Shown piece after piece: positions 31 through 31,829 of a DNA stretch of 64,000 nt. The translations under genes and the position numbers were made by a program. Origin of the DNA: Escherichia phage ukendt. The stretch lies in the sequence record NC_052661.1; one strand, written 5' to 3'. Below the pieces are notes generated by a model. The model was given only the letters and a program-made list of their open reading frames with translations, was not told where the DNA came from and did not search any database. Each line of letters opens with the position of its first letter. The stretch's first letter is position 1.

Positions 31-360
31 TCACTTATCCTCCTCAAAATCTAAGAAAATAAAAATATTCACCTTTCCTTCAATCTCTTGTTCTAAAACA
101 AGATCGGCAAATTCTGCATAAGCTTTCTCTTCAACTTTTTCAATATGCTCTGCGGCATCTTTAAAAGGTGTATCCCCATCCACCTTTACTAATAAGAAAA
201 GAGATCGCATTTCGACGCTTTTACTGTTACGAGGAAGGAAATCTACAGCTTCAACAATTCTCCAACCCAAATAGCCAGGAGTTTTATGAATCTCCCCTAA
301 ATGCTTTTCTAAGATTTTACGACCCTCGTCGATAAGGGCTTGTTCTGTAGTAATTTCCAT
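31..360 (-). CDS. hypothetical acidic protein (109 aa)
   Basis: ORF with SD GAGGAGG upstream of ATG at 360; co-directional with early block; no motif recognised. Confidence 0.5.
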   Translation of the reverse strand: MEITTEQALIDEGRKILEKHLGEIHKTPGYLGWRIVEAVDFLPRNSKSVEMRSLFLLVKVDGDTPFKDAAEHIEKVEEKAYAEFADLVLEQEIEGKVNIFIFLDFEEDK

Positions 361-1198: not shown

Positions 1199-1402
1199 TC
1201 ACGTAGTTGTTATGTTGTCTTCTTGGATACCAGAATCCACTTCTGCAAACATATCTTCTGCACTGTAATTATTTCCAGTCCAGCGTGATAGAAGGATAGC
1301 ACCAATCTCTTTTGCATGAGATTCAGACTCCGCATAAACGTTAGTCCCAGTGTCACCTTTTTTCTTTTCATGTGCATAAATGCAGTAATAATTGTAAGCC
1401 AT
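1199..1402 (-). CDS. hypothetical protein (67 aa)
   Basis: ORF in early operon; start abuts stop of upstream ORF. Confidence 0.4.
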   Translation of the reverse strand: MAYNYYCIYAHEKKKGDTGTNVYAESESHAKEIGAILLSRWTGNNYSAEDMFAEVDSGIQEDNITTT

Positions 1403-1638
1403 TAGTCTTCCCAGTCATTGTCCTCGGTAGAGTGAACCAAAGCTCGCACGATGCCGCCATAGTCTACTGCTTGGTTTGCAGCATGTTCGGCATAAACTTC
1501 AATAGCTTTTTTGAAGAAAAGAGCAGTAGCTGCTTCAATATTATCCATTTCACCCTCTACATCAGTAGAAAGTGAAAGGTTGAGGCTTTCATCTACTTCA
1601 TCAAAATCAATAGCCACTGTCATAATTAGTTTACCCAT
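1402..1638 (-). CDS. hypothetical highly acidic protein (78 aa)
   Basis: ORF; D/E-rich composition. Confidence 0.45.
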   Translation of the reverse strand: MGKLIMTVAIDFDEVDESLNLSLSTDVEGEMDNIEAATALFFKKAIEVYAEHAANQAVDYGGIVRALVHSTEDNDWED

Positions 1639-20244: not shown

Positions 20245-20970
20245 TTACTTGTTAATAATACCTGCAATATTAGGTTTGACAAAGGTCGATGGTTTCATGA
20301 TCTTACCTTTATCATCAAAGAACACATACACTTTCTGTTTTTCATTATAAACAGCATGAACACCAGTGTATGCCCCTTCTGGACGATTGGCATTTCGTTC
20401 TTCAATTGCAGCGCATTCTTGTGCAATGGCTGAATCGATATCCGAAGTTTTCCAAGTTTTCAGCAACTGTTGTTTAGTTGGATACTTGGAATCATTACTT
20501 TTCAATACCTCTTTAATAACTTTCTTTTCTGGATATTTTGAACGGATTAGAGTGTCACGAGACATACGCATAATACCAGCAGCCATTAGTGCCATTTGAA
20601 CTGGCTCTGTAAATGTTTGTTCCAAAGCATCAAAATCAGTATACACAGTTGGAGTAAAAACATCGCCTACAGCATAGTCCAAGAAATTCATCGTATGTTC
20701 TTCACCAAAGAACATGTAAGTCAGATAACTGGATACTACAAAAATATCTGCTGCTGCGTCCAAGAGTTCTACATGATCGTTTACTTTCGCGGCTGTTTCA
20801 TACTCTTTAAGTTCTTCACGAACGAATCCGATTTGGGACATAAATAGCTCTTGAGTGAATTCAGGTTGTTCACCACCTCGTGCTTTGGCATTCCAATCAA
20901 TCACGTGCTTTGCTGCATTTTTGAAAAATTCAGTATCGAATTTAATATCTTTAAAAAAATTCTCGATCAT
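20245..20970 (-). CDS. MazG-like nucleoside triphosphate pyrophosphohydrolase domain protein
   Basis: REELKEYETAAK...VELLDAAADIFVV resembles the MazG ExxE...ExxD motif. Confidence 0.45.
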   Translation of the reverse strand: MIENFFKDIKFDTEFFKNAAKHVIDWNAKARGGEQPEFTQELFMSQIGFVREELKEYETAAKVNDHVELLDAAADIFVVSSYLTYMFFGEEHTMNFLDYAVGDVFTPTVYTDFDALEQTFTEPVQMALMAAGIMRMSRDTLIRSKYPEKKVIKEVLKSNDSKYPTKQQLLKTWKTSDIDSAIAQECAAIEERNANRPEGAYTGVHAVYNEKQKVYVFFDDKGKIMKPSTFVKPNIAGIINK

Positions 20971-21362: not shown

Positions 21363-22490
21363 TTACTCTGCTGGTTCCCAAGTGCCTGGGATCATTTCTC
21401 GAATACGAACACCAACAGGTTTTGTTGGAATACCTTCATCTGAAAATTCTTCATACTCTATTTCAACGAACTGATTAATCAAGGTAGAAGCATTCTCTGC
21501 TTTACGATAATTGATAGTCTCATGAGCATCTTTACGCATTAAGAATTCGACTACTTTACCATTTTCCATCTCACCTGTCAACACTCCATCACCATTTTTA
21601 TCACTTTTTGAATTTGTTACTTTAACTTCAAGGGTGTGGCGAGGCTTACGTTTAATAACGTCATAAGAACGTTTATCAAATTCGTAAACTCCGTTAGCAT
21701 TACGATATACTACACCTTCAGCTTTCTCAAGTAAAGCTTTTTCATAGAAAGCATCAAACTGTTCTTGGTTTTCAATATACTCTGTATGAACTACGCAAAT
21801 AAGCTCGTCAAGACCATAATCTTCAACTACTGCCTTAAGAGCAGCAAGAACATCAACACGTTTTTCAAACGGTAGATCTGGAACTGGAATATCATATACG
21901 TAATAATTCAGCAAAGGTGTATTTGCATTATGCTTCTTCCAGGCACTGTTAATTTGTTGCAGACTAAGGACACCTAACCCAGCAAACACTTCACCATCAA
22001 GAGGATGACCAACAACTTCACTAATAAAGTTTGGAATACCTTTCCAATGAGGTGGCAGGTTATACACTTCCCCAGCTTTTGATAAACACTCTCCTTTCAT
22101 GTTAATCATAGAACGTAACCCGTTCAGTTTGTATTGTGCATAACCAGGGAACACAACCCTTTCAGGATAATCTTTATAATCCTGGCATTTCATTGGTGTG
22201 GAAGGAACATGGTTTTCAGCTTCTTCTTTTGTTTTATAATAGCCATTCTTTAACTGTTTTGTCCATTTGGCAAAAGCTTCAAGTTCAGCTTGTTCTTCCG
22301 GTGTTGTTTCATTGGAACGACCAATGTTTTTTGCTTCTGCTGTATAAGATTTTTCTGTGATTTTTCCACCTACTCTTCCATGAGCTACAGTAACAACTGC
22401 ACCATCTGTATACACTGTCCACTGTTTAAGTTTTCCTTTTGAATCTTTACCATACAGCGTTTGATTTGTTTGTTGCATCAGTCCTCCCAT
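21363..22490 (-). CDS. ATP-dependent polynucleotide ligase (covalent nucleotidyltransferase; RNA- or DNA-ligase)
   Basis: motif I YKLNGLR (KxNG), motif III LDGEVF, motif IV EGVVYR, motif V DVIKRK; 375 aa. Confidence 0.6.
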   Translation of the reverse strand: MGGLMQQTNQTLYGKDSKGKLKQWTVYTDGAVVTVAHGRVGGKITEKSYTAEAKNIGRSNETTPEEQAELEAFAKWTKQLKNGYYKTKEEAENHVPSTPMKCQDYKDYPERVVFPGYAQYKLNGLRSMINMKGECLSKAGEVYNLPPHWKGIPNFISEVVGHPLDGEVFAGLGVLSLQQINSAWKKHNANTPLLNYYVYDIPVPDLPFEKRVDVLAALKAVVEDYGLDELICVVHTEYIENQEQFDAFYEKALLEKAEGVVYRNANGVYEFDKRSYDVIKRKPRHTLEVKVTNSKSDKNGDGVLTGEMENGKVVEFLMRKDAHETINYRKAENASTLINQFVEIEYEEFSDEGIPTKPVGVRIREMIPGTWEPAE

Positions 22491-22699
22491 TTAAAAACTG
22501 AAATTTTCAATCTATTACACACTTCATCCAAATCTGCGTCGAGTAACGTTGTAGATGTTGCCAATATGTAATCAATGCTTGTGAAACCTTGTCCTTTGGC
22601 ATAGTCAAGCATATCTTCATACATATCTTCAAGATCACCGTCATCAAAAGTAGCTAGAAAATCCTCGTCTCCGCTACGAACATAAAATGCAGTACTCAT
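22478..22699 (-). CDS. hypothetical highly acidic protein (73 aa)
   Basis: ORF; D/E-rich. Confidence 0.45.
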   Translation of the reverse strand: MSTAFYVRSGDEDFLATFDDGDLEDMYEDMLDYAKGQGFTSIDYILATSTTLLDADLDEVCNRLKISVFKWED

Positions 22700-22887
22700 T
22701 CTTCTTCATCCCAAGATTCAAAAGCACAACAATCATCGGTTTCTATAATACCAACACGTCCGCAGGTATTGCAAGTGATTTTATCCCCGTAGAATAAATA
22801 ATTTTTATCACCCTCTGTGTTTACAGTTATGTCATTACTACCACAAGGGCAAGTCAGCCAACCAACAACAACGATATCTTTTTTCAT
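22696..22887 (-). CDS. small zinc-ribbon protein (63 aa)
   Basis: CPCG...CNTCG Cys pairs. Confidence 0.45.
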   Translation of the reverse strand: MKKDIVVVGWLTCPCGSNDITVNTEGDKNYLFYGDKITCNTCGRVGIIETDDCCAFESWDEEE

Positions 22888-22896
22888 AATCCCTCC

Positions 22897-23223
22897 TTAA
22901 GCGTTAAGTTCGTTGTTGAGTTCGTAAATCTCTTCTTGAAGAGCATCAATCTCTTCCTCCAAACGGGAGATCTCTTCTCTTAGATATACCATTTCGGATT
23001 CTTTCTCTTCTAATTCATTTTCAAATTTTACTTTATTAGCCTCATTTTCATAATGCAGTTCAGCGTAATCATCACGCATTTGTTCAATAAGATGAATCAG
23101 AGACAAGATATAATTGTCTCCCGTTTCATCACGCCACTCTTCACCGTGACGGAGAACGGTAATTCGTCCAGTATCTTCATCTAAAATTGTCTCATATTTA
23201 CGATCATCTGTATAAATCTGCAT
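22897..23223 (-). CDS. coiled-coil protein (108 aa)
   Basis: heptad-like EEISRLEEEIDALQEEIYELNNE. Confidence 0.45.
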   Translation of the reverse strand: MQIYTDDRKYETILDEDTGRITVLRHGEEWRDETGDNYILSLIHLIEQMRDDYAELHYENEANKVKFENELEEKESEMVYLREEISRLEEEIDALQEEIYELNNELNA

Positions 23224-23232
23224 TATTTCTCC

Positions 23233-23637
23233 TTATTGAAGTTTAAGTGAACCACGAAGACGTTTCTCTTGCTGATCACGGATATATTGTGGAACCTCGT
23301 GAATTGAATCATTACCGTGCCTATTTTCAACAACTAAAGAGATAACTTGATAACCAAACTCTTCAGCAAGAGCTAGATAAGGTTTAAGTTCTTTCTCTGT
23401 GGTTGAAGTATTAGAAACAATAATCTTGTTAAGATTAGATGCCATAGCATCACGAACAATACCCTGACACCATGCGTGTGCTTTACCTACATTTTCTGGC
23501 TTCCAATCGTAAACACCACTCTCTGTGTAATGATATTGATCTGCCTCACAGATAGGCCAATAACCTTCAGAAATAATTTCTGCTACTGTAGATTTACCAG
23601 CACCTGAAACGCCACGTAAAATGATAAGTTGTTTCAT
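23233..23637 (-). CDS. polynucleotide 5'-kinase (Pnk-type P-loop kinase domain)
   Basis: P-loop GVSGAGKST; KIIVSNTSTTEKE parallels T4 Pnkp kinase VIISDTNLNPERR; TAATG overlap with ligase stop. Confidence 0.65.
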   Translation of the reverse strand: MKQLIILRGVSGAGKSTVAEIISEGYWPICEADQYHYTESGVYDWKPENVGKAHAWCQGIVRDAMASNLNKIIVSNTSTTEKELKPYLALAEEFGYQVISLVVENRHGNDSIHEVPQYIRDQQEKRLRGSLKLQ

Positions 23638-24570
23638 TTATCCTCCAAAAAAGTTTTCGATTTTTTCACGTCGCTCTTGCTGATTTAAAGCAGCCCATTG
23701 AATCTTCGTAAAATTATTTCGAATCCATTCTAACAAAGCGTAATATTCTTCGTCAACCATTTGTTTGGCATTTTTTGGATTATCCCAAATCAGATCCCAC
23801 TTTTTATCTCCACCGCGCATAAGAAACTTCTTAGTAAGATAGTGTGGTGATTTAATTTTTAAAAGTAAGTTGAACGGATAGTTTGTTTCACGAACTACAA
23901 ACCCTTCGTGTTTACAATGTTTAGACATTTCAACAACATCTGAAAACTTAACCATTGGATGAACTTCAGGACGCTTAAATTTGGTGACAGAAGCAATTCC
24001 ATCAAGAGCACCTTCAGGTAACATAAAACTTGTCCCATCAGGATTTTGAATTCTGGCACCAATTAAGTATGCACCTGGTTCTTCTTCGACAATATGCGGA
24101 TCAGAAGGATCACAGATTTCAAAAAGGAAAGTTGCTTTTGCGCTCTCTGTCCATTTGATGAAATGTTCTATGTCATCACACTCTGAAACAATATGATTCT
24201 TTGCAATACTTGCAAAATCTGATTCAAGGCTTCCTGTTGTCGATACAATAAGTTGACCTTTATATACACCTACAGAGGCCATAAAACCATTTACTTTACG
24301 AACCACATCTACAAGTTCATCCGCTGGTAGATCTGTGCCATTCTCAAAACGATTAAAAATCTTAGTGAAAGGCCAAATAACAACATTGTCATCAGCATCA
24401 ACAACGATTCCGCGACATTCTAGAAGACGAGAATCAATGCTCCATAAGTTATCCCAGAAAACTTTGTTCTTATACTTAAGAACAGATAGACCAGAATACT
24501 CTCCTTCTTTATATGTTTTCTTATGAACTAAACCTTTTTCAACCAAATCGTCGCAATTAAATTTAGTCAC
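23638..24570 (-). CDS. RNA ligase, Rnl1 family
   Basis: LLECRGIVVDADDN vs T4 Rnl1 ALECRGIMFEMDGE; motif I RKVNGFMASV vs TKEDGSLVST; PFTKIFN vs PMEKFFN; GTG start. Confidence 0.75.
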   Translation of the reverse strand: MTKFNCDDLVEKGLVHKKTYKEGEYSGLSVLKYKNKVFWDNLWSIDSRLLECRGIVVDADDNVVIWPFTKIFNRFENGTDLPADELVDVVRKVNGFMASVGVYKGQLIVSTTGSLESDFASIAKNHIVSECDDIEHFIKWTESAKATFLFEICDPSDPHIVEEEPGAYLIGARIQNPDGTSFMLPEGALDGIASVTKFKRPEVHPMVKFSDVVEMSKHCKHEGFVVRETNYPFNLLLKIKSPHYLTKKFLMRGGDKKWDLIWDNPKNAKQMVDEEYYALLEWIRNNFTKIQWAALNQQERREKIENFFGG

Positions 24571-24571
24571 A

Positions 24572-25123
24572 TTACTCTCCTTTGATTATTTTGTGATGGT
24601 CTACAGTCACGATATCTCGTTTACTCATCATAGAAATTATCTCATCAAAATGCAAGATTTTTCCGTGTGCATCCCAACCCACATCTAACATTTTACCATA
24701 AGCTTCATCAGGGAAAGATCCGTGGGAATGCCCATGTAGCATGATTGATCCACGACCTTGTTTATTCCAGGAGGCAATAGGGTAATGACTTAAGACGAAG
24801 AACAGCTTCTGGTATTTCACTTCGTCATAATACACCACTTCGCCATACTCTGCAAGCACTTCTCGGTGTTTGCTGTAGTCATGGTTCCCAACACAGTAGG
24901 TGATATCTCCTTGGAGACGGGAAGCAATTTTACGGGTATCTTCTTCAGTTCCGAAACAGAAGTCGCCCAAATGCCACATCTTAACACCAGGAGTAGTAGC
25001 ACATTTGTTCCATGCTTCGATCAAGGCTTCTGTCATGTGGTCCATATCTTCCCACGGACGATATTCAGGAGCAAACTCTCGAATACGTTTATGCATAAAA
25101 TGCAAATCGCTTGTAATAAACAT
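24572..25123 (-). CDS. calcineurin-like metallophosphoesterase (candidate RNA 2',3'-phosphoesterase)
   Basis: SDLHF (DxH), LGDF (GD), GNHDY (GNHD), LHGHSHG; 183 aa; separated from ligase stop by 1 nt. Confidence 0.7.
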   Translation of the reverse strand: MFITSDLHFMHKRIREFAPEYRPWEDMDHMTEALIEAWNKCATTPGVKMWHLGDFCFGTEEDTRKIASRLQGDITYCVGNHDYSKHREVLAEYGEVVYYDEVKYQKLFFVLSHYPIASWNKQGRGSIMLHGHSHGSFPDEAYGKMLDVGWDAHGKILHFDEIISMMSKRDIVTVDHHKIIKGE

Positions 25124-25479
25124 TAGTATAATCCCTCGCTAAATAATTCATGATCGTGACCATTACGCTCATGGTCGATCTGGTCAGCATTTTCCGCGAT
25201 GATGTAAGCATCCGCACGACTCCACCAATTGTAATACTGATCGATAAAGCCTTGATTATCTGGTGTGCACAAAGTTTTGTTGATTACACCTGCTTCTTTC
25301 AACACGTTTAACTGTGCATATAGTACAGGATTTGCATGTCGAACACAAGGAATAATTAACTCTTCACCATTATTCAAAATATACTTATTTGCAGCACAGA
25401 CGATAACACGTTGCGCATAATGACCCTCACCCATCCAGGTAAGAGGTTGGTAACAAATATTGTTTTCAATACCACTCAT
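25123..25479 (-). CDS. hypothetical protein (118 aa)
   Basis: ORF with SD GAGGAGGA. Confidence 0.5.
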   Translation of the reverse strand: MSGIENNICYQPLTWMGEGHYAQRVIVCAANKYILNNGEELIIPCVRHANPVLYAQLNVLKEAGVINKTLCTPDNQGFIDQYYNWWSRADAYIIAENADQIDHERNGHDHELFSEGLY

Positions 25480-25485
25480 TGTTTC

Positions 25486-25629
25486 CTAATCCTCCTCTCT
25501 TAAGTTATCCTCGAAAAAACTAGTGTCTGGAAGTAAAAGATCATTACTTGTGTCGGGCCAATCCTCTTCTTCTCGGTAGATAAAGTAACCTTCGTCCTCT
25601 TCTTGTTCCGACCAAACCGAATGATGCAT
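25486..25629 (-). CDS. small acidic protein (47 aa)
   Basis: hand-translated MHHSVWSEQEEDEGYF...; SD AAGGAGAG. Confidence 0.35.
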   Translation of the reverse strand: MHHSVWSEQEEDEGYFIYREEEDWPDTSNDLLLPDTSFFEDNLREED

Positions 25630-25638
25630 GTTCTCTCC

Positions 25639-25995
25639 TTAATAGTGCACACGAATCATTTTAATACCATAACGCAGCATGGATTCTTTTGCAAGCATGA
25701 ATTTATCCCCAGCGGCGGGATTAGAAGTATGCACGAAAATGGTAGGTGAACCAAAGCAAGGTTTACCAAACGCCAAAAGTTCTTCCAGGCGCAGGAAAAC
25801 ATCATACCCATCTTGGTCAGAATCTTCACCCAAATCGTTGTCAAAATGCCACTCGTCTACAAAACGATAACCCTTCTGCACCTCGTTCATGTAGCGAGAG
25901 GCAAGAAGTTCCTGTGATGTTTTAAACCAGATTGCATCTGGACAACCATAATCTTTTGGATCACGTAAATCATCAAGCCAAATAATAGTACCCAT
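25639..25995 (-). CDS. hypothetical alpha/beta-type protein (118 aa)
   Basis: N-terminus MGTIIWLDDLRDP; sits next to the RNA-repair cassette; family not confirmed. Confidence 0.5.
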   Translation of the reverse strand: MGTIIWLDDLRDPKDYGCPDAIWFKTSQELLASRYMNEVQKGYRFVDEWHFDNDLGEDSDQDGYDVFLRLEELLAFGKPCFGSPTIFVHTSNPAAGDKFMLAKESMLRYGIKMIRVHY

Positions 25996-26005
25996 ATAAC
26001 CTCCT

Positions 26006-26476
26006 CTAAGCTGGCATGATTAAAAAAGAACTCTCCACTTCAAAATGCCAATCATCTACAAGCCCTGATTCCCAATCCTTCTCTTCATGGAAAGAGCAAA
26101 TCCAACGGTACATACCTGGCGGTGTATTCTCAACATCTTCTGGCAACCCATAATCCAAAGCTGTCTTACCGTTCTCGGTAAAACCAGGATGGAGATTAGG
26201 AGCTTTCAGTACAGAAACCATACCTCCAACATCTACAGCCACGATCCACTCTGTCATGTATGGGCTGTCATATTGAGGCTCATCAGAACCTACCTCAACA
26301 GCCTCTGTGCGTAAGATGATAATAGCCTGCTCTGTGATTGGGGCTTTGACAATATACCCGTGATCCTCAAAAAGATCGATAACCTCGAACTCATCGCCGT
26401 TTTCGATACCATAGCTCTTATTCAAAGAGATAAACTTCGGGTTATCATCGTAAGCTTTAGTTACTTTAATTTTCAT
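26006..26476 (-). CDS. hypothetical protein (156 aa)
   Basis: ORF in early block. Confidence 0.5.
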   Translation of the reverse strand: MKIKVTKAYDDNPKFISLNKSYGIENGDEFEVIDLFEDHGYIVKAPITEQAIIILRTEAVEVGSDEPQYDSPYMTEWIVAVDVGGMVSVLKAPNLHPGFTENGKTALDYGLPEDVENTPPGMYRWICSFHEEKDWESGLVDDWHFEVESSFLIMPA

Positions 26477-26697
26477 TTTTCCTCCTTCACTTTAACCTCA
26501 AATTCTACAGGCTTACCCTCAATGTAAAAACACTGATACTCTGCCTTATCATCCTCATCACGAGGCCAAGTTACCAAGGAGTTATAGCAATCTTCTGGTG
26601 CTTTGAAGATGGTTTTAGTCTCCACAGTAACATTCCCATTAAGTGTTGCCAATACCACCCACCCAGCTACAGGGATCATAGTGCCTCCACTTTCCAC
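26473..26697 (-). CDS. hypothetical protein (74 aa)
   Basis: ORF; 4-nt overlap. Confidence 0.4.
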   Translation of the reverse strand: MESGGTMIPVAGWVVLATLNGNVTVETKTIFKAPEDCYNSLVTWPRDEDDKAEYQCFYIEGKPVEFEVKVKEEK

Positions 26698-26858
26698 GTT
26701 TTACCCTTATCAACCAAGGTCTTTGCTACAGCATACTCCTTCCCATTAACAATGAAATAATAAACTATAAAAGATTTTCCGATTGTTACTGTCTTAGTAA
26801 CCTCTACGCGTTTAACACCTTGCATGTATTTCGCCTTACCGGAATAAAGTAAAATCAT
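26676..26858 (-). CDS. hypothetical protein (60 aa)
   Basis: ORF; overlaps neighbours. Confidence 0.35.
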   Translation of the reverse strand: MILLYSGKAKYMQGVKRVEVTKTVTIGKSFIVYYFIVNGKEYAVAKTLVDKGKTWKVEAL

Positions 26859-27136
26859 TTTGCATTCCTCTTATTATTGATAACATCCATAGCAGTATAT
26901 GGTTTATTAGTGCCATGATACTCCAGAATCATTGGAGAGCCTTCTTGCACTACTTCAAAAATACCATAAACAGAACTTTCAGCAAATACCATTTGCTTCG
27001 TGCCTTCATCGTTTACAACGAGAGAAAACTTCTTGCCTGTCCCGTTGAGGATCTCGTATTTCTTGCCAGCAGTGAATAATCCAGAGTACCACTCGTTATC
27101 TGTTGCTTTTACACACTTCAGGAAAGTCTTGATCAT
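26855..27136 (-). CDS. hypothetical protein (93 aa)
   Basis: ORF. Confidence 0.45.
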   Translation of the reverse strand: MIKTFLKCVKATDNEWYSGLFTAGKKYEILNGTGKKFSLVVNDEGTKQMVFAESSVYGIFEVVQEGSPMILEYHGTNKPYTAMDVINNKRNAK

Positions 27137-27486
27137 TTCTTTTTGCTCCTCTTTTTAGATTTCTCATACAAACCTAACACAGCCGCCTCTTTTGCACAAG
27201 TAGGAACTGAAGTCATTCCTCTTCGTTTTGCTTCTGGTAGTTGCAAAGTCCATATTCCCCACCAATAAATTTGGTCTGCCGTGAGTGGTTCAGCCATTGG
27301 ATCTGCCTCCTGCTCCTCAAGACGTTGCAACGCTTCTTCAATCTTCTCGATTGGTGTGTCAAAGACGAATGCCTCCGTATCAAATTTATCTTTCTTAGGA
27401 ACTGATTTGGCTACTTTGAGAACCTCGTTTTTCGGTTTCTTAGTAACGTTCTTTGGCTTTGATAACTTCTTCGGTGTTTTCGCCAC
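27133..27486 (-). CDS. lysine-rich putative nucleic-acid-binding protein (117 aa)
   Basis: K-rich N- and C-termini (MAKTPKKLSKPKNVTKKPK...KKRSKKK). Confidence 0.45.
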   Translation of the reverse strand: MAKTPKKLSKPKNVTKKPKNEVLKVAKSVPKKDKFDTEAFVFDTPIEKIEEALQRLEEQEADPMAEPLTADQIYWWGIWTLQLPEAKRRGMTSVPTCAKEAAVLGLYEKSKKRSKKK

Positions 27487-27679
27487 TTACTACCTCCATA
27501 CGATCTAAAAAGTCATTCACAAATCTCCAGTAACGTTGACCTGTTCTAAGATCTTCATAGATAACCACAGGATCAAACACTTTAGATATTCCGGCAGGTT
27601 TTGGAAATTCCACTACCGTATATAAACCACCTTTTGCTACACAAGAATAGGTTACGCCTGTAATTGGATAGTTGCTCAT
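27440..27679 (-). CDS. hypothetical protein (79 aa)
   Basis: ORF. Confidence 0.4.
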   Translation of the reverse strand: MSNYPITGVTYSCVAKGGLYTVVEFPKPAGISKVFDPVVIYEDLRTGQRYWRFVNDFLDRMEVVSGENTEEVIKAKERY

Positions 27680-27870
27680 TTCTTTACGTACTCCATGATT
27701 GGGGTATGGTCGCCAGTAAGTGTAACACGGCTGTAGGACACATCTTGTGTCTTCAGTGTATCAATCCACTCTAAGAAGTGTTCTTTCGCTTCTGTGTAGT
27801 TCTGTGTGCCTTTAACAACGTGTATACCATCTAGAGTTACACGGAATACCATTTGAATAACGTCTTTCAT
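27676..27870 (-). CDS. hypothetical protein (64 aa)
   Basis: ORF. Confidence 0.4.
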   Translation of the reverse strand: MKDVIQMVFRVTLDGIHVVKGTQNYTEAKEHFLEWIDTLKTQDVSYSRVTLTGDHTPIMEYVKK

Positions 27871-27983
27871 TTCTTACCTCCTTTGTTGTCAAAATAACTT
27901 ACCAGAACATCGTGAACCACACACATGGCAAAAATCAGAACAATTGTTGTCAGGACTGGATTCTCACTAATTAGTGCTATCAT
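27867..27983 (-). CDS. small membrane protein (38 aa)
   Basis: internal ATG with SD GGAGGTGG; single hydrophobic helix; the longer track ORF would overlap the upstream gene by ~100 nt. Confidence 0.3.
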   Translation of the reverse strand: MIALISENPVLTTIVLIFAMCVVHDVLVSYFDNKGGKK

Positions 27984-28290
27984 CTTTAACCACCTCCAAT
28001 TGCCTTTCGAGTTTGACTTTGTTTGAGAACTGATAATGACACAACTTACATTGCATGTCAACAATCTGATCGTGATTTAACCCTACAATTTTAACTTCCT
28101 TTGCACCATCCCATTCCAAATACTCAAAGCCATCCAAATGATTACTCTTGTCCAACAGGAATGCTATCTGCTGCCATTCAATCTGAATATCATTTAAATG
28201 ATATGCTGCACAGAAGATATCCTCATAGTAAAAGACGACCATTGTCATTGCTTCGTCCAGTACAACTACCTCTTGTCTTGTAAATCTCAT
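27967..28290 (-). CDS. hypothetical protein (107 aa), first gene of minus-strand block
   Basis: SD GGAGG before ATG at 28290. Confidence 0.45.
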   Translation of the reverse strand: MRFTRQEVVVLDEAMTMVVFYYEDIFCAAYHLNDIQIEWQQIAFLLDKSNHLDGFEYLEWDGAKEVKIVGLNHDQIVDMQCKLCHYQFSNKVKLERQLEVVKDDSTN

Positions 28291-28334
28291 TCTAGCCTCC
28301 TAAACGCGTCTCTGACGCACTTTTTATATATAAG

Positions 28335-28363
28335 ATGATAAATCACCTTACCTAGTAAGTAAA
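28335..28363 (-). promoter_or_regulatory. candidate early promoter TTTACT-N17-TATCAT (minus strand)
   Basis: read on reverse complement upstream of the 28290 start; a small hairpin (GCGTC-TCT-GACGC, ~28306..28318) lies in the 5'UTR. Confidence 0.35.
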
Positions 28364-28542
28364 CTTGCTCTACGAGCCTCTTATGAAGCTTATGTTATAG
28401 GCTATACTATTGCTACCTGTTTAAGCAAGGTTTTTGCACACAGAAAATAATTTTTAATAAAACTCTTGACTTTTGTGTTCGAAGTATGCTACCCTAGAAA
28501 TCTATTAACGAGCGAAGCGAGTTAAGGTTTTAGGTTGTTGAT

Positions 28543-28656
28543 GTAGTACTCTGTACTCAAGTACTGTACTCCGTACTAGATTAATAATTATTAAATATTA
28601 ATAATAAATAATTATTAGATCTAACAAACAGGTACAGTGTATCAGAACTGGTACGT
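28543..28656. repeat. GTAC(T) direct-repeat cluster flanking a 40-bp A/T-only tract (candidate origin or regulatory hub)
   Basis: five GTACT copies in tagtactctgtactcaagtactgtactccgtactag, then a pure A/T tract, then further GTAC motifs (ggtacagtg...ggtacgtacag). Confidence 0.5.
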
Positions 28657-28711
28657 ACAGATCAACTTCTATCAATTAAAAAATAAAATAATAAATTATT
28701 ATAAATAATAC

Positions 28712-28740
28712 TTGATCTATAGATCAGTATGAAGTATAGT
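28712..28740 (+). promoter_or_regulatory. promoter TTGATC-N17-TATAGT overlapping the palindrome GATCTATAGATC
   Basis: ttgatctatagatcagtatgaagTATAGT; perfect 12-bp palindrome with two GATC sites at 28714..28725. Confidence 0.45.
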
Positions 28741-28772
28741 ACGGAACATCTTAACAAGAATGGAGGTGTGCA

Positions 28773-28958
28773 ATGATTAGTGAGAATCCGTGCAAATGGC
28801 ATCATGTGCCTATTAAAGATTGTATGTCTTGTAATCCACGTTCTATTTATAACATTGCATCTTATGATGATGACAATGTGTTAGACGATGATGAAGGCTG
28901 GGAGGATTTAGATTGGACTGGTTATGAAACCAAAAAGGATAAAATTATTCCTAGTTGA
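28773..28958 (+). CDS. hypothetical Cys-containing protein (61 aa)
   Basis: SD GGAGG before ATG; first plus-strand gene. Confidence 0.5.
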   Translation: MISENPCKWHHVPIKDCMSCNPRSIYNIASYDDDNVLDDDEGWEDLDWTGYETKKDKIIPS

Positions 28959-28995
28959 CTTAAGATATCCTTCGTGCTAAACTAGAAATGAGGAG

Positions 28996-29247
28996 ATGCC
29001 GATCACTCCCCATTTGGGGTTCGAAGGATATATGCAAAATAGCTTTTATTTTAGGTGCCGTGCTTGTAATAGGCATTTGACAAACCACTCCAGACGTGAT
29101 AAAAATGGAGTCATCAAGGAATCAGACCTCTGTTCTATTTGCACAGGTTTGGCTTTTGATGATAGTCCCGAAAGGGTTTATCAGCATCAATGTATAACAG
29201 ACGTTCTCGTGTCAAACTTGGTAGAGGACGAACAACTAACAGATTAG
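28996..29247 (+). CDS. small zinc-finger protein
   Basis: CRACNRH...CSIC; start ambiguous (28996 or ATG 29032 with SD AAGGA). Confidence 0.45.
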   Translation: MPITPHLGFEGYMQNSFYFRCRACNRHLTNHSRRDKNGVIKESDLCSICTGLAFDDSPERVYQHQCITDVLVSNLVEDEQLTD

Positions 29248-29255
29248 GAGGAACA

Positions 29256-29504
29256 ATGTCTCTATTAGAAAAACACGTGTTTGAAGATGGTAACGGCAAT
29301 GCAGTTTTTCTTTTCCATCCAGAAAAATACACATCTGAAAACAATGGTACAACTTCTATTGTAATCACTAAAGATGTTAAAGTTATTGATTTCTTGGCTC
29401 TGATGCGAGAGATGGATCTTGAAATTAATACTTTTAACGCAGAAGCTTTGGTTGTTGCTCTTCTGGAAAAGAAAGATAGTGAAGAAGTAGCAGAATATGC
29501 TTAA
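29256..29504 (+). CDS. hypothetical protein (82 aa)
   Basis: start at internal ATG with SD AGGAGG (track ORF begins earlier at 29190). Confidence 0.5.
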   Translation: MSLLEKHVFEDGNGNAVFLFHPEKYTSENNGTTSIVITKDVKVIDFLALMREMDLEINTFNAEALVVALLEKKDSEEVAEYA

Positions 29505-29511
29505 ATAACTA

Positions 29512-29541
29512 TTGACAAACGTATCCTTCATATGTTAGGAT
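29512..29541 (+). promoter_or_regulatory. promoter TTGACA-N18-TAGGAT with extended TG
   Basis: ctaTTGACAaacgtatccttcatatgtTAGGAT; upstream of the tRNA array leader. Confidence 0.4.
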
Positions 29542-29751
29542 ACGTTCATCAAGTGTGGTAACAGGGTCGTTGACTTTTGTTAAGAGAGGCTTGCACTGCG
29601 GATAGTGTTAGAGACTACTTCTTCAGAGGTTAGCTACCAAAGAGGAAAAGGAATAGTCTCGGCTCAAGAACTTTTACGCTGAAAGTTGGGCTTGGTCTTA
29701 GAGAATGTAGCGGTTCTCTACAATCGTCAGCGTCTCTGTTACCACATTTAT

Positions 29752-29826
29752 GGCCCTGTAGCTCAATGGGAGAGCTGTCGGCTCATAACCGATAGGTAGC
29801 TGGATCGAAACCAGCCAGGGCCACCA
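29752..29826 (+). tRNA. tRNA-Met/Ile2 (anticodon CAT)
   Basis: manual cloverleaf: acceptor GGCCCTG/CAGGGCC, D-stem GCTC/GAGC, anticodon loop CTCATAA, encoded CCA; acceptor resembles tRNA-Ile2. Confidence 0.75.
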
Positions 29827-29828
29827 AC

Positions 29829-29903
29829 GTCTTTATGGTGTAATGGATAGCACAGGAGTCTTCTAAACTCTTAGTCAAGGTTCGATTCCTTGTAAAGACA
29901 CCA
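29829..29903 (+). tRNA. tRNA-Arg (anticodon TCT)
   Basis: acceptor GTCTTTA/TAAAGAC, anticodon loop CTTCTAA, T-arm CAAGG-TTCGATT-CCTTG, CCA. Confidence 0.75.
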
Positions 29904-30099
29904 GAACATTTTAACATGAATTAGCTCAAGTGATTTGAACCCACTACTGATCATGGTGGCAGAGAATGAGGTAAGTATGTCAGACATTATAAACAAAGGC
30001 CACGGTTATATTAGAAGACATAAATGCTCGAAGAGCACCGTTCGCTGAGAACGGGGGTTGGTGGAGTCACCATTCATGGTAAAATGTTTTAAAAAACTA

Positions 30100-30137: not shown

Positions 30138-30228
30138 GGAAGGGCAAATCGACGTGGCGACGAAAACGGTCTTGAAAACCGCCGAGCTTGAAAGAGCCTT
30201 GGGAGTTCGACTCTCCCTCCTTCCGCCA
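30138..30228 (+). tRNA. tRNA-Ser (anticodon TGA), class II
   Basis: anticodon arm ACGGT-CTTGAAA-ACCGC and long variable arm as in E. coli tRNA-Ser(UGA); 3' end TCCTTCC-G-CCA; D-region irregular. Confidence 0.6.
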
Positions 30229-30448: not shown

Positions 30449-30536
30449 GGTGAGTTAATTCCGTAGGGGTAGCGGGGCAGACTGTAAATCTGTTATCATT
30501 GCGATTCGGGTGGTTCGACTCCATCACTCACCACCA
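30449..30536 (+). tRNA. tRNA-Tyr (anticodon GTA), class II
   Basis: acceptor GGTGAGT/ACTCACC, anticodon arm GCAGA-CTGTAAA-TCTGT (as E. coli tRNA-Tyr), long variable arm, A73, CCA. Confidence 0.7.
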
Positions 30537-31672: not shown

Positions 31673-31787
31673 AATATCGCTTGCCAGCGGTATCTTTGAA
31701 GACCTTGCCTGGTTCCTTCTAAGATGGAGGGGTGCGACTCCTTAACGCACAATTATAATAAAGCATTTCAAATTAACAGTATTTATT

Positions 31788-31810
31788 AGCCTCCTTATTG
31801 GAGGCTTTTT
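31788..31810 (+). terminator. intrinsic terminator closing the tRNA array
   Basis: AGCCTCC-ttatt-GGAGGCT followed by TTTTT. Confidence 0.7.
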
Positions 31811-31829
31811 GCTATCTATTGAATAAAAC

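What the first reader, a model, noticed from the sequence alone, without database searches (positions are those of the whole stretch)
25123..28290. Early block of ~14 small ORFs, several strongly acidic, as host-takeover or anti-defence candidates
Immediately downstream of the divergent promoter region lie many 40-160-aa ORFs with overlapping junctions and no recognisable enzyme motifs. Some are D/E-rich (25486..25629 here; also 22478..22699, 1402..1638 and 31..360 elsewhere on the minus strand), which is the composition of DNA-mimic anti-restriction proteins, and one is lysine-rich (27133..27486). ORF 25639..25995 (MGTIIWLDDLRDP...) abuts the RNA-repair cassette and may belong functionally with it.
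Basis: inference. Interest (0 to 1): 0.4.

Follow-up and report, generated by a model that had tools for sequence, protein, structure and literature searches.

The report
Small-gene block heading phage RNA-repair operon
This stretch of an E. coli phage holds twelve real small genes; the one with an informative family match (cREC) belongs with the adjacent tRNA-repair genes, a gene neighbourhood already described by comparative genomics in related phages, and nothing supports the DNA-mimic idea, so the finding is largely ordinary.

Summary
The window is a Phapecoctavirus (phAPEC8-like E. coli myovirus, 98-99% identical to published genomes). Region 25123-28290 holds 12 minus-strand genes of 38-156 aa, not ~14. 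All have Shine-Dalgarno sites and a PHROG family, and ten are under clear purifying selection. Seven of the eleven internal junctions overlap.

Only ORF B (47 aa, 36% D/E) is a real acidic outlier. The phage proteome is acidic overall (median pI 5.1).

"No recognisable enzyme motifs" is wrong. ORF C (25639-25995) is a cREC domain (Pfam PF20274, 50.5 bits) with its diagnostic aspartates intact. It lies one to two genes from a calcineurin-like phosphoesterase, an Rnl1-type RNA ligase and a P-loop kinase.

ORF A is the T4 Arn.3/T4_Y16D family, whose "anti-restriction nuclease" label is name creep. Its model is confident, it has no known fold neighbour, and its function is unknown. ORF D is an SH3-like barrel plus DUF8046. 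ORF H is a conserved basic protein. The other eight are lineage-restricted unknowns.

No evidence supports DNA mimicry, and early timing is untested. Verdict: a real, mostly ordinary block; a new member of a known kind.

The parts
27967..28290 (-). ORF L, 107 aa, first gene of the block; unknown function (phrog_14390)
   Evidence: AGGAGG SD. PHROG hit 2e-60. dN/dS 0.27 against L007. 43-58% identical in JLBYU50 and L007. No Pfam or PDB match.
27867..27983 (-). ORF K, 38 aa, hydrophobic (GRAVY 0.92), probable single-pass membrane peptide; the weakest gene call of the twelve
   Evidence: GGAGG SD, ATG start and annotation in ESCO13. phrog_26968. dN/dS 0.44 over 33 codons. Absent from JLBYU50.
27676..27870 (-). 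ORF J, 64 aa, unknown function
   Evidence: phrog_15683. dN/dS 0.09. ATGA-type 4-nt overlaps on both sides.
27440..27679 (-). ORF I, 79 aa, unknown function; weak, sub-threshold DUF1653 resemblance
   Evidence: PF07866 E=0.1, 13.4 bits against a cut-off of 23.5. phrog_12584. dN/dS 0.13-0.20.
27133..27486 (-). ORF H, 117 aa, basic protein (pI 9.6) with conserved lysine-rich N and C tails and a conserved core. Found across rV5/phAPEC8-type phages upstream of the repair genes. Inferred nucleic-acid binder.
   Evidence: GTG start confirmed by the conserved MAKTPKK N-terminus. 61 homologous clusters, the larger contigs carrying them about 130-155 kb, none with a Pfam family. 66% identical in Mydo and R7, one gene or none from the phosphoesterase. 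dN/dS 0.05.
26855..27136 (-). ORF G, 93 aa, unknown function
   Evidence: phrog_10169. dN/dS 0.13. No significant PDB match.
26676..26858 (-). ORF F, 60 aa, basic (pI 9.8), unknown function
   Evidence: phrog_15376. dN/dS 0.05-0.09.
26473..26679 (-). ORF E, 68 aa, unknown function. The ATG at 26679 is the likely start; the longer GTG form runs to 26697.
   Evidence: GGAGG lies upstream of the ATG. phrog_15821 matches from residue 8 of the long form. dN/dS 0.06. Absent from JLBYU50.
26006..26476 (-). ORF D, 156 aa, acidic (19% D/E). N-terminal SH3-like beta-barrel (about residues 1-60) plus a C-terminal DUF8046 domain (about residues 60-155). Unknown function.
25639..25995 (-). ORF C, 118 aa, cREC (cyclic-phosphate processing receiver-like) domain protein. 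Predicted metal-independent 2',3'-cyclic phosphodiesterase of the RNA-repair cassette.
   Evidence: PF20274, 50.5 bits against a cut-off of 27. Invariant D8, D9, D52-N-D54-L-G and H89-T-S-N in 9 divergent phage sequences. 342 phage records carry a homologue. Lies within one to two genes of an RNA ligase in JLBYU50, Mydo, R7 and rV5. Literature.
25486..25629 (-). ORF B, 47 aa, the only strongly acidic protein of the block (36% D/E, net -15). Unknown function.
   Evidence: Composition. phrog_18323. 78% identical in JLBYU50 with pN 0.115 against pS 0.77. The same slot in L007 holds a diverged 44-aa protein that is still acidic.
25123..25479 (-). ORF A, 118 aa, member of the T4 Arn.3 / Pfam T4_Y16D family. 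Unknown function, with enzyme-like invariant polar residues.
24572..25123 (-). Calcineurin-like metallophosphoesterase, 183 aa (neighbour; RNA end-healing phosphatase candidate)
   Evidence: Metallophos_2 at 24.3 bits, just below the cut-off of 27. phrog_547 'phosphoesterase' 9e-56. The canonical DxH, GD, GNHD and GHxH motifs are visible in the translation.
23638..24570 (-). Rnl1-type RNA ligase, 310 aa (neighbour)
   Evidence: PF09511 RNA_lig_T4_1, 56.8 bits against a cut-off of 28.3.
23233..23637 (-). P-loop kinase, 134 aa; candidate 5'-OH polynucleotide kinase (neighbour)
   Evidence: PF13671 AAA_33, 41.1 bits against a cut-off of 27. Weak phrog_505 'polynucleotide kinase' hit, 8e-8. No PDB sequence match.
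28335..28363 (-). Candidate sigma-70-type promoter for the block (TTTACT-17-TATCAT) with a conserved AGGTAAGGTGATT element
   Evidence: 9 of 12 consensus matches. Conserved in ESCO13, L007 and JLBYU50. Unique in the window. Function not shown.
28306..28318 (-). Conserved hairpin (GCGTC-AGA-GACGC on the minus strand) in the 5' leader of ORF L
   Evidence: Flagged by the terminator scan on the plus strand. Conserved in ESCO13 and L007. Role unknown.

Best explanation
The block is the promoter-proximal part of one long, tightly packed leftward operon of a Phapecoctavirus. It contains twelve real small genes.

Its three promoter-distal genes (C, B, A) are contiguous with an RNA 'heal-and-seal' cassette. 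At least C works with that cassette.

Proposed mechanism:
1. A host anticodon nuclease cuts a tRNA, leaving a 2',3'-cyclic phosphate and a 5'-OH.
2. cREC (ORF C) opens the cyclic phosphate without metal, using its Rec-like aspartates.
3. The calcineurin-like phosphoesterase removes the resulting phosphate.
4. The P-loop kinase phosphorylates the 5'-OH.
5. The Rnl1-type ligase seals the break.

Shown here: gene reality, family memberships, intact motifs and conserved linkage. Inferred: every enzymatic step, the substrate, and early timing.

The other nine to eleven genes are lineage-restricted accessory proteins with no assignable function:
- A is in the T4 Arn.3/T4_Y16D family, of unknown function.
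- D is an SH3-like barrel plus DUF8046.
- H is a conserved basic protein and probably binds nucleic acid.
- B is a small acidic peptide.
- K is a membrane peptide.

The block is therefore anti-defence only in the sense of RNA repair, not DNA mimicry.
For: GENES ARE REAL
- SD-like sequence on 12 of 12.
- PHROG family for 12 of 12.
- dN/dS 0.05-0.27 for 10 of 12.

ONE TRANSCRIPTION UNIT IS PLAUSIBLE
- All gaps are 10 nt or less and seven junctions overlap.
- No minus-strand terminator-like site lies between 28290 and 23233.

cREC
- PF20274 at 50.5 bits against a cut-off of 27.
- D8, D9, DNDLG and HTSN are invariant across 9 sequences down to 32% identity.

NEIGHBOURS
- RNA_lig_T4_1 at 56.8 bits, AAA_33 at 41.1 bits, and a phosphoesterase with all calcineurin-like motifs.

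LINKAGE OF cREC TO THE LIGASE, KINASE AND PHOSPHOESTERASE IS KEPT DESPITE REARRANGEMENT
- JLBYU50, Mydo, R7 and rV5.
- In T5-like phage PR1, cREC sits inside the tRNA gene cluster.

LITERATURE
- PMC7824862 and PMC9503650 section 3.7.3 describe this neighbourhood for 'phage V5' and 'Mydo' and predict cyclic-phosphate opening.

PROMOTERS
- The homologous operons in Mydo and R7 carry near-consensus extended sigma-70 promoters. This fits host-polymerase, early-type transcription.
Against: - cREC activity has never been measured. The authors themselves call it experimentally uncharacterised, and nothing later was found.
- From my own knowledge: the metallophosphoesterase domain of Clostridium thermocellum Pnkp opens 2',3'-cyclic phosphates by itself, so cREC may be redundant for RNA healing and may act on another substrate.
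- The kinase has no detectable similarity to solved polynucleotide kinases.
- The window's own candidate promoter is weak at 9 of 12, and promoter-like hits are at chance level.
- No expression data exist for this phage group.
- Nothing ties A or B to repair apart from position. In T4, Ackermannviridae and six metagenomic or jumbo-phage contexts, the A family is not next to repair genes.
Confidence: 0.6

Rival explanations
1. The acidic small proteins (B, and perhaps D) are DNA mimics that block restriction enzymes or other DNA-binding defence or housekeeping proteins, and the block as a whole is a host-takeover module.
For: - B has 36% D/E and net charge -15 over 47 aa, the extreme of 72 gene-like ORFs in the window.
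- Its slot keeps small size and acidity in JLBYU50 and L007 while the sequence drifts.
- D is 19% D/E.
- From my own knowledge: very small acidic DNA mimics exist, such as T7 gp5.9 (52 aa) and phi29 p56 (56 aa), so size alone does not exclude the idea.
- The block sits at the head of an operon next to the main intergenic region.
Against: - The case rests on composition only. The phage proteome is acidic overall, with median pI 5.1 and 43% of ORFs below pI 5.
- No match to any anti-restriction family in Pfam, PHROGs or NCBIfam, and none to PADLOC defence models.
- D's model is an SH3-like barrel plus a beta domain and returned no DNA-mimic protein among its PDB matches.
- The 'anti-restriction nuclease' label on A is name creep from the T4 locus name.
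Confidence: 0.12
2. cREC acts not on RNA ends but on NAD-derived small molecules. Candidates are ADP-ribose 1''-2'' cyclic phosphate, made when a phage sirtuin or KptA-type enzyme removes a 2'-phosphate, or host immune signalling nucleotides. It would then be a clean-up or counter-signalling enzyme.
For: - Iyer et al. propose this as an alternative and note cREC-Nudix fusions.
- The near-identical genome DIJ07P1 encodes a Sir2 (PF02146, 80.9 bits) that is 56% identical to Mydo's cassette Sir2.
- A MazG-type pyrophosphatase lies about 2.3 kb downstream of the kinase in the window.
- From my own knowledge: a calcineurin-like phosphoesterase could heal RNA ends alone, which would leave cREC free for another substrate.
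Against: - In this phage type the Sir2 is about 30 kb from cREC, while cREC stays beside the ligase, kinase and phosphoesterase.
- The genome has no NAMPT or PRPP synthetase.
- In PR1, cREC sits among tRNA genes with no sirtuin in the 8-kb stretch examined.
- There is no biochemical data either way.
Confidence: 0.2
3. Apart from C, the block has no coherent function. It is a mosaic accumulation zone of independently acquired small accessory genes, each with its own unrelated role, that merely share a promoter.
For: - D, E and K are missing from Justusliebigvirus JLBYU50, while F-J, L and A-C are kept.
- Mydo and R7 share only H and C with the block.
- The A family shows varied contexts elsewhere.
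- There is a sharp recombination patch inside C.
- Nine of the twelve have no Pfam family even in the newest release.
Against: - This is compatible with the best explanation rather than opposed to it.
- H and C keep their place relative to the repair genes across subfamilies, which argues for some functional coupling.
Confidence: 0.5

Closest known systems
Sirtuin-centred phage RNA-repair neighbourhood, type 2 of Iyer, Burroughs, Anand, de Souza & Aravind 2022 (PMC9503650, section 3.7.3), prototyped by Escherichia phage V5 and Proteus phage Mydo
   Same: It contains a T4-like RNA ligase, a cREC protein, a small nucleotide kinase, a calcineurin-like phosphoesterase and a MazG-type pyrophosphatase, all on one strand within about 6 kb. 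ORF C is 59% identical to Mydo's cREC.
   Different: - No sirtuin lies in the neighbourhood. In the near-identical genome DIJ07P1 the Sir2 is about 30 kb away.
- Gene order differs. Here cREC is separated from the ligase by B, A and the phosphoesterase, whereas in Mydo, R7 and rV5 it directly follows the ligase.
- A T4_Y16D gene and a 47-aa acidic gene are inserted here. Mydo's 118-aa gene in a similar place is unrelated.
T4 Pnkp + Rnl1 tRNA repair pathway, which counters the PrrC anticodon nuclease (established knowledge)
   Same: It has an Rnl1-family ligase (PF09511) together with 5'-kinase and 3'-end-healing functions encoded side by side. tRNA genes lie nearby on the other arm.
   Different: - Healing is split over three separate small proteins (kinase, calcineurin-like phosphoesterase, cREC) instead of one bifunctional Pnkp.
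- From my own knowledge: T4 Pnkp's phosphatase domain is of the HAD type, unlike the calcineurin-like enzyme here.
- No activity has been tested here.
T4 Arn.3 (Pfam PF26092 T4_Y16D)
   Same: ORF A aligns over 112 residues at 45% identity with the T4 arn.3 product and shares all invariant motifs of the family.
   Different: - ORF A lacks the ~40-residue N-terminal extension of the 152-aa T4 protein.
- In T4 the gene lies in the arn.4-arn transcript near motA and asiA, not next to RNA-repair genes.
- Function is unknown in both.
DNA-mimic anti-restriction proteins (Ocr, ArdA, Arn; T7 gp5.9 as a small example) (own knowledge)
   Same: ORF B shares only the high negative charge density.
   Different: No sequence-family match was found, and no structure could be predicted for B. 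At 47 aa, B is shorter than any mimic I know of.

Membership tests
cREC (Pfam PF20274, cyclic-phosphate processing receiver domain) - ORF C | Sequence match to the family profile above the curated cut-off | tested here: met
   50.5 bits against a gathering score of 27, E=3.4e-13, covering profile positions 2-83 of 88. The precomputed index also labels the homologue cREC_REC.
cREC - ORF C | Conserved Rec-like acidic active site (the two aspartates that Iyer et al. describe) | tested here: met
   D8-D9 and D52-N-D54-L-G, plus H89-T-S-N, are invariant in 9 phage sequences down to 32% identity.
cREC - ORF C | Occurs with RNA-repair or ADPr-processing genes and never with a histidine kinase | tested here: met
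   It lies one to two genes from a phosphoesterase, an RNA ligase and a kinase here. The same holds in JLBYU50, Mydo, R7 and rV5. No histidine kinase appears in any of these loci.
cREC - ORF C | Rec-like (flavodoxin-type) three-dimensional fold | not tested
cREC - ORF C | Cyclic phosphodiesterase activity | not testable with these tools
   The activity is a prediction in the literature and has never been assayed.
Sirtuin-centred RNA-repair neighbourhood, type 2 (Iyer et al. 2022) | T4-like tRNA ligase, cREC and nucleotide kinase encoded together | tested here: met
   PF09511, PF20274 and PF13671 all lie within 23233-25995.
Sirtuin-centred RNA-repair neighbourhood, type 2 (Iyer et al. 2022) | MazG-superfamily pyrophosphatase in the neighbourhood | tested here: met
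   20245-20970 matches PRA-PH (PF01503) at 28.2 bits against a cut-off of 21.3. The ESCO13 record annotates it as nucleotide pyrophosphohydrolase. That PF01503 belongs to the MazG superfamily is my own knowledge.
Sirtuin-centred RNA-repair neighbourhood, type 2 (Iyer et al. 2022) | A sirtuin gene coupled to the repair genes (the feature that centres the system) | tested here: not met
   tblastn with three phage Sir2 proteins finds nothing in the 64-kb window. In the near-identical genome DIJ07P1 a Sir2 (PF02146, 80.9 bits) lies about 30 kb from the cassette.
T4_Y16D / Arn.3 (PF26092) - ORF A | Sequence homology to T4 Arn.3 and presence of the family's motifs | tested here: met
   tblastn gives 45% identity, E=2e-20, over the arn.3 CDS. 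All 120 listed homologues carry PF26092. The motifs VCAAN, RH, QGFIDQ and ELFSExLY are present. The local Pfam copy lacks this model.
Arn-type anti-restriction protein (the label 'anti-restriction nuclease' given to ORF A in some records) | Homology to T4 Arn itself | tested here: not met
   The tblastn match in T4 falls on arn.3 (162172-162630), not on arn (161312-161590). The functions of arn.1 to arn.4 are stated to be unknown.
DNA-mimic anti-restriction proteins (Ocr/ArdA type) - ORFs B and D | Sequence or fold similarity to a known mimic, with surface charge arrayed like a DNA backbone | tested here: not met
   No family hit for B or D in Pfam, PHROGs (functional category), NCBIfam or PADLOC. 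D's model is an SH3-like barrel plus a beta domain. B's structure was not predicted.
DUF8046 (PF26219) - ORF D | Sequence match to the family | tested here: met
   All 67 homologues carry precomputed PF26219, and the identical protein is labelled DUF8046. 94 representative clusters align to residues ~60-153.

The most novel reading that the evidence does not exclude
The Arn.3/T4_Y16D family (ORF A) may be an uncharacterised enzyme with a fold not yet represented in the PDB. It is found in more than 1,500 sequenced phages, including T4. It would act on nucleic-acid ends or nucleotide-derived molecules as part of counter-defence. In phAPEC8-type phages it would have been recruited between the phosphoesterase and cREC as an extra step of tRNA healing.
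Probability: 0.12. Interest if true: 0.6.

Novelty: new member of a known kind. Interest (0 to 1): 0.28.

Why it matters
tRNA-cleaving defence systems are a major barrier to phages, and phage repair cassettes are the counter-move. The cREC domain is a purely computational prediction that nobody has assayed. This well-behaved 118-aa stand-alone version comes from an easily grown E. coli phage, sits next to a ligase, a kinase and a phosphoesterase, and would make a convenient test case.

Separately, the work clears up a misleading database label. 'Anti-restriction nuclease' on Arn.3-family proteins has no basis. It also flags Arn.3/T4_Y16D as a very widespread phage protein with a confident model and no known fold relative.

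Otherwise the block is what most phage genomes show at the head of an early-type operon: small lineage-specific genes of unknown function.

Tried and rejected
- PADLOC and NCBIfam scans of ten block ORFs each (all but J and K) found nothing usable.
- Single-sequence PDB searches for A, C, D, G, H, I, L and the kinase found nothing significant.
- Profile-against-PDB searches for the A and D families found nothing.
- BFVD for A returned only uncharacterised family members, plus marginal hits (E about 0.03) to 'large polyvalent protein associated domains' that I do not trust.
- AFDB50 was unavailable.
- I considered that ORF A might be the 'distinct sirtuin' of the published cassette. I rejected this because the real Sir2 was found elsewhere in the genome and A has none of the Sir2 profile.
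- I considered that Mydo's 118-aa gene after the phosphoesterase was an A homologue. It is not.
- I looked for a recurrent gene partner of T4_Y16D in six remote contexts and found none.
- I searched for a repeated phage promoter motif, but the conserved element is unique in the window.
- Rfam found no RNA family inside the block.
- Literature searches for transcriptomes of this phage group and for cREC experiments found none.

Full report
IDENTITY OF THE WINDOW

A 6-kb query around the finding matches 125 phage records. The best is Escherichia phage Mt1B1_P17 at 98.9% over its full length. All close hits with a taxonomy line are Stephanstirmvirinae, genus Phapecoctavirus: phAPEC8-like E. coli myoviruses of about 150 kb.

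The window's minus-strand arm (1-28290) carries replication, nucleotide-metabolism and repair genes. After a 480-bp intergenic region, the plus-strand arm carries small ORFs and then 10-12 tRNA genes. Terminase, portal, capsid and tail genes follow.

CHECKING THE OBSERVATION

The ORF chain is real but has twelve members, not about fourteen. I call them L to A in the direction of transcription:

- L: 27967-28290
- K: 27867-27983
- J: 27676-27870
- I: 27440-27679
- H: 27133-27486
- G: 26855-27136
- F: 26676-26858
- E: 26473-26679
- D: 26006-26476
- C: 25639-25995
- B: 25486-25629
- A: 25123-25479

These correspond to ESCO13 gp129-gp118.

Evidence that they are genes:

- Each has a Shine-Dalgarno-like sequence.
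- Each matches a PHROG family.
- Against a 77-93% identical IMG/VR relative (L007) and a Justusliebigvirus (JLBYU50), dN/dS is 0.05-0.27 for ten of them.
- The exceptions are the 38-aa K (0.44 over 33 codons) and B against L007, where the slot holds a strongly diverged protein. Against JLBYU50, B shows pN 0.115 and pS 0.77.

Seven of the eleven internal junctions overlap, by 4, 4, 4, 4, 47, 4 and 17 nt. The remaining gaps are 6-10 nt. No minus-strand terminator-like site lies between 28290 and the end of the kinase gene at 23233. So 'many small ORFs with overlapping junctions' is confirmed.

The compositional claim is only partly confirmed. I compared the block with 72 gene-like ORFs of the window, which have median pI 5.1 and 43% below pI 5.

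- B is the single extreme outlier: 36% D/E, net charge -15 over 47 residues.
- D, at 19% D/E, sits at the upper quartile.
- A, C, E and L are ordinary.
- H is indeed basic: 22% K+R, pI 9.6.

The statement that the block has 'no recognisable enzyme motifs' is wrong.

ORF C IS A cREC DOMAIN PROTEIN

C matches Pfam PF20274 (cREC_REC, 'cyclic-phosphate processing receiver domain') at 50.5 bits against a cut-off of 27.

I aligned it with eight other phage homologues. They range from 79% identity (ESCO13) to 32% (the 440-kb Salicola phage SCTP-2). Invariant residues are W6, D8, D9, R11, P13, K25, D52-N-D54-L-G, G63, E71, H89-T-S-N, A95 and A102. The invariant aspartates match the two-aspartate, Rec-like active site described for this family (PMC9503650).

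Immediately downstream of C, after B and A, come three repair-type genes:

- A calcineurin-like phosphoesterase (24572-25123). It scores 24.3 bits on Metallophos_2, just under the cut-off, and 9e-56 on phrog_547. The DxH, GD, GNHD and GHxH motifs are visible in the translation.
- An Rnl1-family RNA ligase (23638-24570; PF09511, 56.8 bits).
- A 134-aa P-loop kinase (23233-23637; AAA_33, 41.1 bits; weak polynucleotide-kinase PHROG hit).

A MazG-type pyrophosphatase lies at 20245-20970.

The linkage is conserved despite rearrangement:

- JLBYU50 has cREC, B, A, phosphoesterase, ligase, kinase.
- Mydo and R7 have phosphoesterase, one or two other genes, ligase, cREC, kinase, Sir2, DNA ligase.
- rV5 has ligase, cREC, Sir2, with the kinase and phosphoesterase divergent.
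- The T5-like phage PR1 has cREC inside its tRNA gene cluster.

Aravind's group described exactly this neighbourhood for 'Escherichia phage V5' and 'Proteus phage Mydo'. They predict that cREC opens 2',3'-cyclic phosphates on RNA, or 1''-2'' cyclic ADPr phosphate, and they say it is experimentally uncharacterised (PMC7824862, PMC9503650). I found no later experimental work.

HOW THIS PHAGE DIFFERS FROM THE PUBLISHED CASSETTE

The sirtuin that centres the published system is not in the neighbourhood. tblastn with three phage Sir2 proteins finds nothing in the 64-kb window.

In the near-identical complete genome DIJ07P1 (94-98.5% identical to the window in the aligned segments), a Sir2 lies about 7 kb beyond the window's left edge. 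It scores 80.9 bits on PF02146 and is 56% identical to Mydo's. That places it roughly 30 kb from the cassette, among genes without recognisable repair domains. The same genome has no NAMPT or PRPP synthetase.

The cassette here also carries two genes that Mydo, R7 and rV5 lack at this position: A and B.

ORF A

A is 45% identical to the T4 arn.3 product and has homologues in 1,524 phage records, including Tevenvirinae, Ackermannviridae and jumbo phages. All database homologues carry Pfam PF26092, 'T4_Y16D'. That model is newer than the local Pfam copy.

Some records label it 'anti-restriction nuclease'. That is name creep from the T4 locus name, because the match is to arn.3 and not to arn. 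A June 2026 preprint states that the functions of arn.1 to arn.4 are unknown.

What can be said about the family:

- It has enzyme-like invariant residues: V27, A29, A30, R47, H48, Q76, G77, F78, R88, L112, S114 and Y118 are invariant. C28, I79, D80, A91, Q100, F113, E115 and L117 are nearly so.
- AlphaFold gives a confident alpha/beta model (pLDDT 93.8, pTM 0.84).
- A profile search of PDB sequences finds nothing.
- All significant BFVD matches are uncharacterised family members.

In T4, two Ackermannviridae and six metagenomic or jumbo-phage contexts, the family has no recurrent partner. There is only a loose nucleotide-metabolism flavour: dUTPase/DCD, NT5C, polyphosphate kinase, PhoH, and MazG/NADAR. 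I therefore do not claim that A works in RNA repair. Its position here is specific to Stephanstirmvirinae.

THE OTHER ORFS

H is the only other block gene conserved beyond the subfamily. It is 66% identical in Mydo and R7, where it lies one gene or none upstream of the phosphoesterase. Its 61 homologous clusters come from phage contigs, the larger of them about 130-155 kb, and have no Pfam family. The conserved MAKTPKK N-terminus validates the GTG start. Both termini are lysine-rich. I infer nucleic-acid binding, but nothing more.

For the rest:

- I has a sub-threshold DUF1653 resemblance.
- K is a hydrophobic 38-aa peptide.
- E, F, G, J and L have no informative match.

With the newest precomputed Pfam, only A, C and D of the twelve have any family. 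PADLOC has no match for the ten block ORFs scanned, which left out J and K.

TIMING AND PROMOTER

Sigma-70-like matches in 22000-30000 are at chance level: 26 found against 22.4 +/- 4.3 expected.

Upstream of L there is a TTTACT-17-TATCAT candidate (28363-28335). It has a conserved AGGTAAGGTGATT element shared with ESCO13, L007 and JLBYU50 and unique in the window. A conserved hairpin sits in the leader.

In Mydo and R7 the homologous operon has near-consensus extended sigma-70 promoters. That fits host-polymerase transcription early in infection. I found no transcriptome for this phage group.

MECHANISM I COMMIT TO (confidence about 0.6)

The block heads one tightly coupled leftward operon. 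Its distal part, together with the next three genes, is a split 'heal-and-seal' tRNA repair pathway:

1. cREC opens the 2',3'-cyclic phosphate left by a metal-independent anticodon nuclease.
2. The calcineurin-like enzyme removes the phosphate.
3. The kinase phosphorylates the 5'-OH.
4. The Rnl1-type ligase seals the nick.

Shown here: gene reality, family membership, intact motifs and conserved linkage. Inferred: all activities, the substrates and the timing.

The main caveat comes from my own knowledge. A metallophosphoesterase of the Clostridium thermocellum Pnkp type can open cyclic phosphates alone. cREC may therefore act on ADPr>P or another cyclic phosphate instead (rival 2, about 0.2).

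The DNA-mimic reading survives only as a composition-based possibility for B (about 0.12).

Much of the block is probably a mosaic of independent accessory genes. This view does not conflict with the mechanism above.

NOVELTY AND INTEREST

- The cREC-ligase-kinase-phosphoesterase neighbourhood is published for sister lineages. This is a new member, with the sirtuin dislocated and two extra genes inserted.
- The rest is the usual set of small hypothetical phage genes.
- The one open lead is the Arn.3/T4_Y16D family: very widespread, confidently modelled, with no known fold relative and no function.
- Overall interest is low to moderate (0.28).

Noticed in passing
window 25800-25999: Against ESCO13 the region 23000-29000 is 95-100% identical in every 100-nt window, except a sharply bounded ~200-bp patch at 65-66% identity. 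The patch covers codons ~1-65 of cREC. At the protein level the window's version of this half looks closer to Mydo and JLBYU50, so it is probably a recombination or gene-conversion patch inside the gene.
   Followed up: partly
window 28538-28725: The divergent intergenic region holds five GTACT motifs at 7-8 nt spacing (about 28538-28580). They are followed by extremely AT-rich palindromic stretches at 28580-28620 and 28687-28725. This could be a regulator-binding or origin-like element.
   Followed up: no
window 28306-28318: A GC-rich hairpin (GCGTC-AGA-GACGC on the minus strand) lies just upstream of ORF L's ribosome-binding site. It is conserved in ESCO13 and L007. On the plus strand it reads as a terminator-like hairpin followed by a T-run.
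   Followed up: partly
Records annotate it variously as 'hol-like chemotaxis' or 'DNA polymerase I', which look like annotation artefacts.
   Followed up: partly
L025 5188-6003 (DIJ07P1 103188-104003), outside the window: A Sir2-family gene (PF02146, 80.9 bits; 56% identical to Mydo's cassette Sir2) lies about 7 kb beyond the window's left edge in a near-identical genome, unlinked from the RNA-repair genes. That genome lacks the NAMPT and PRPP-synthetase genes found next to the block in JLBYU50 and Mydo.
   Followed up: partly
window 30138-30224 and 30449-30533: Rfam finds two further tRNA-like sequences that ARAGORN did not report. One scores 39 bits, above the tRNA cut-off. The other is a long-arm type scoring 37 bits on the tRNA-Sec model, below that cut-off. 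There is also a weak sub-threshold RyhB-like hit at 31759-31813.
   Followed up: no
L016 3983-4339 (Providencia phage PR1): In this T5-like phage the cREC gene sits in the middle of the tRNA gene cluster, with no ligase in the 8 kb examined. This is an independent hint that cREC is tied to tRNA biology.
   Followed up: no
L012 1-7000 (metagenomic phage contig): A DUF8046 gene (ORF D's family) lies directly upstream of a DNA ligase and a MazG gene, with T4_Y16D and NADAR genes a few kb further on. The same families therefore recur together in an unrelated phage.
   Followed up: no
window 28033-28061: The best sigma-70-like match in the block (TTGACA-17-CATTAT with an upstream TG; 10 of 12) lies inside ORF L, immediately upstream of ORF K, on the minus strand. 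It could be an internal promoter, but promoter-like hits are at chance frequency overall.
   Followed up: no
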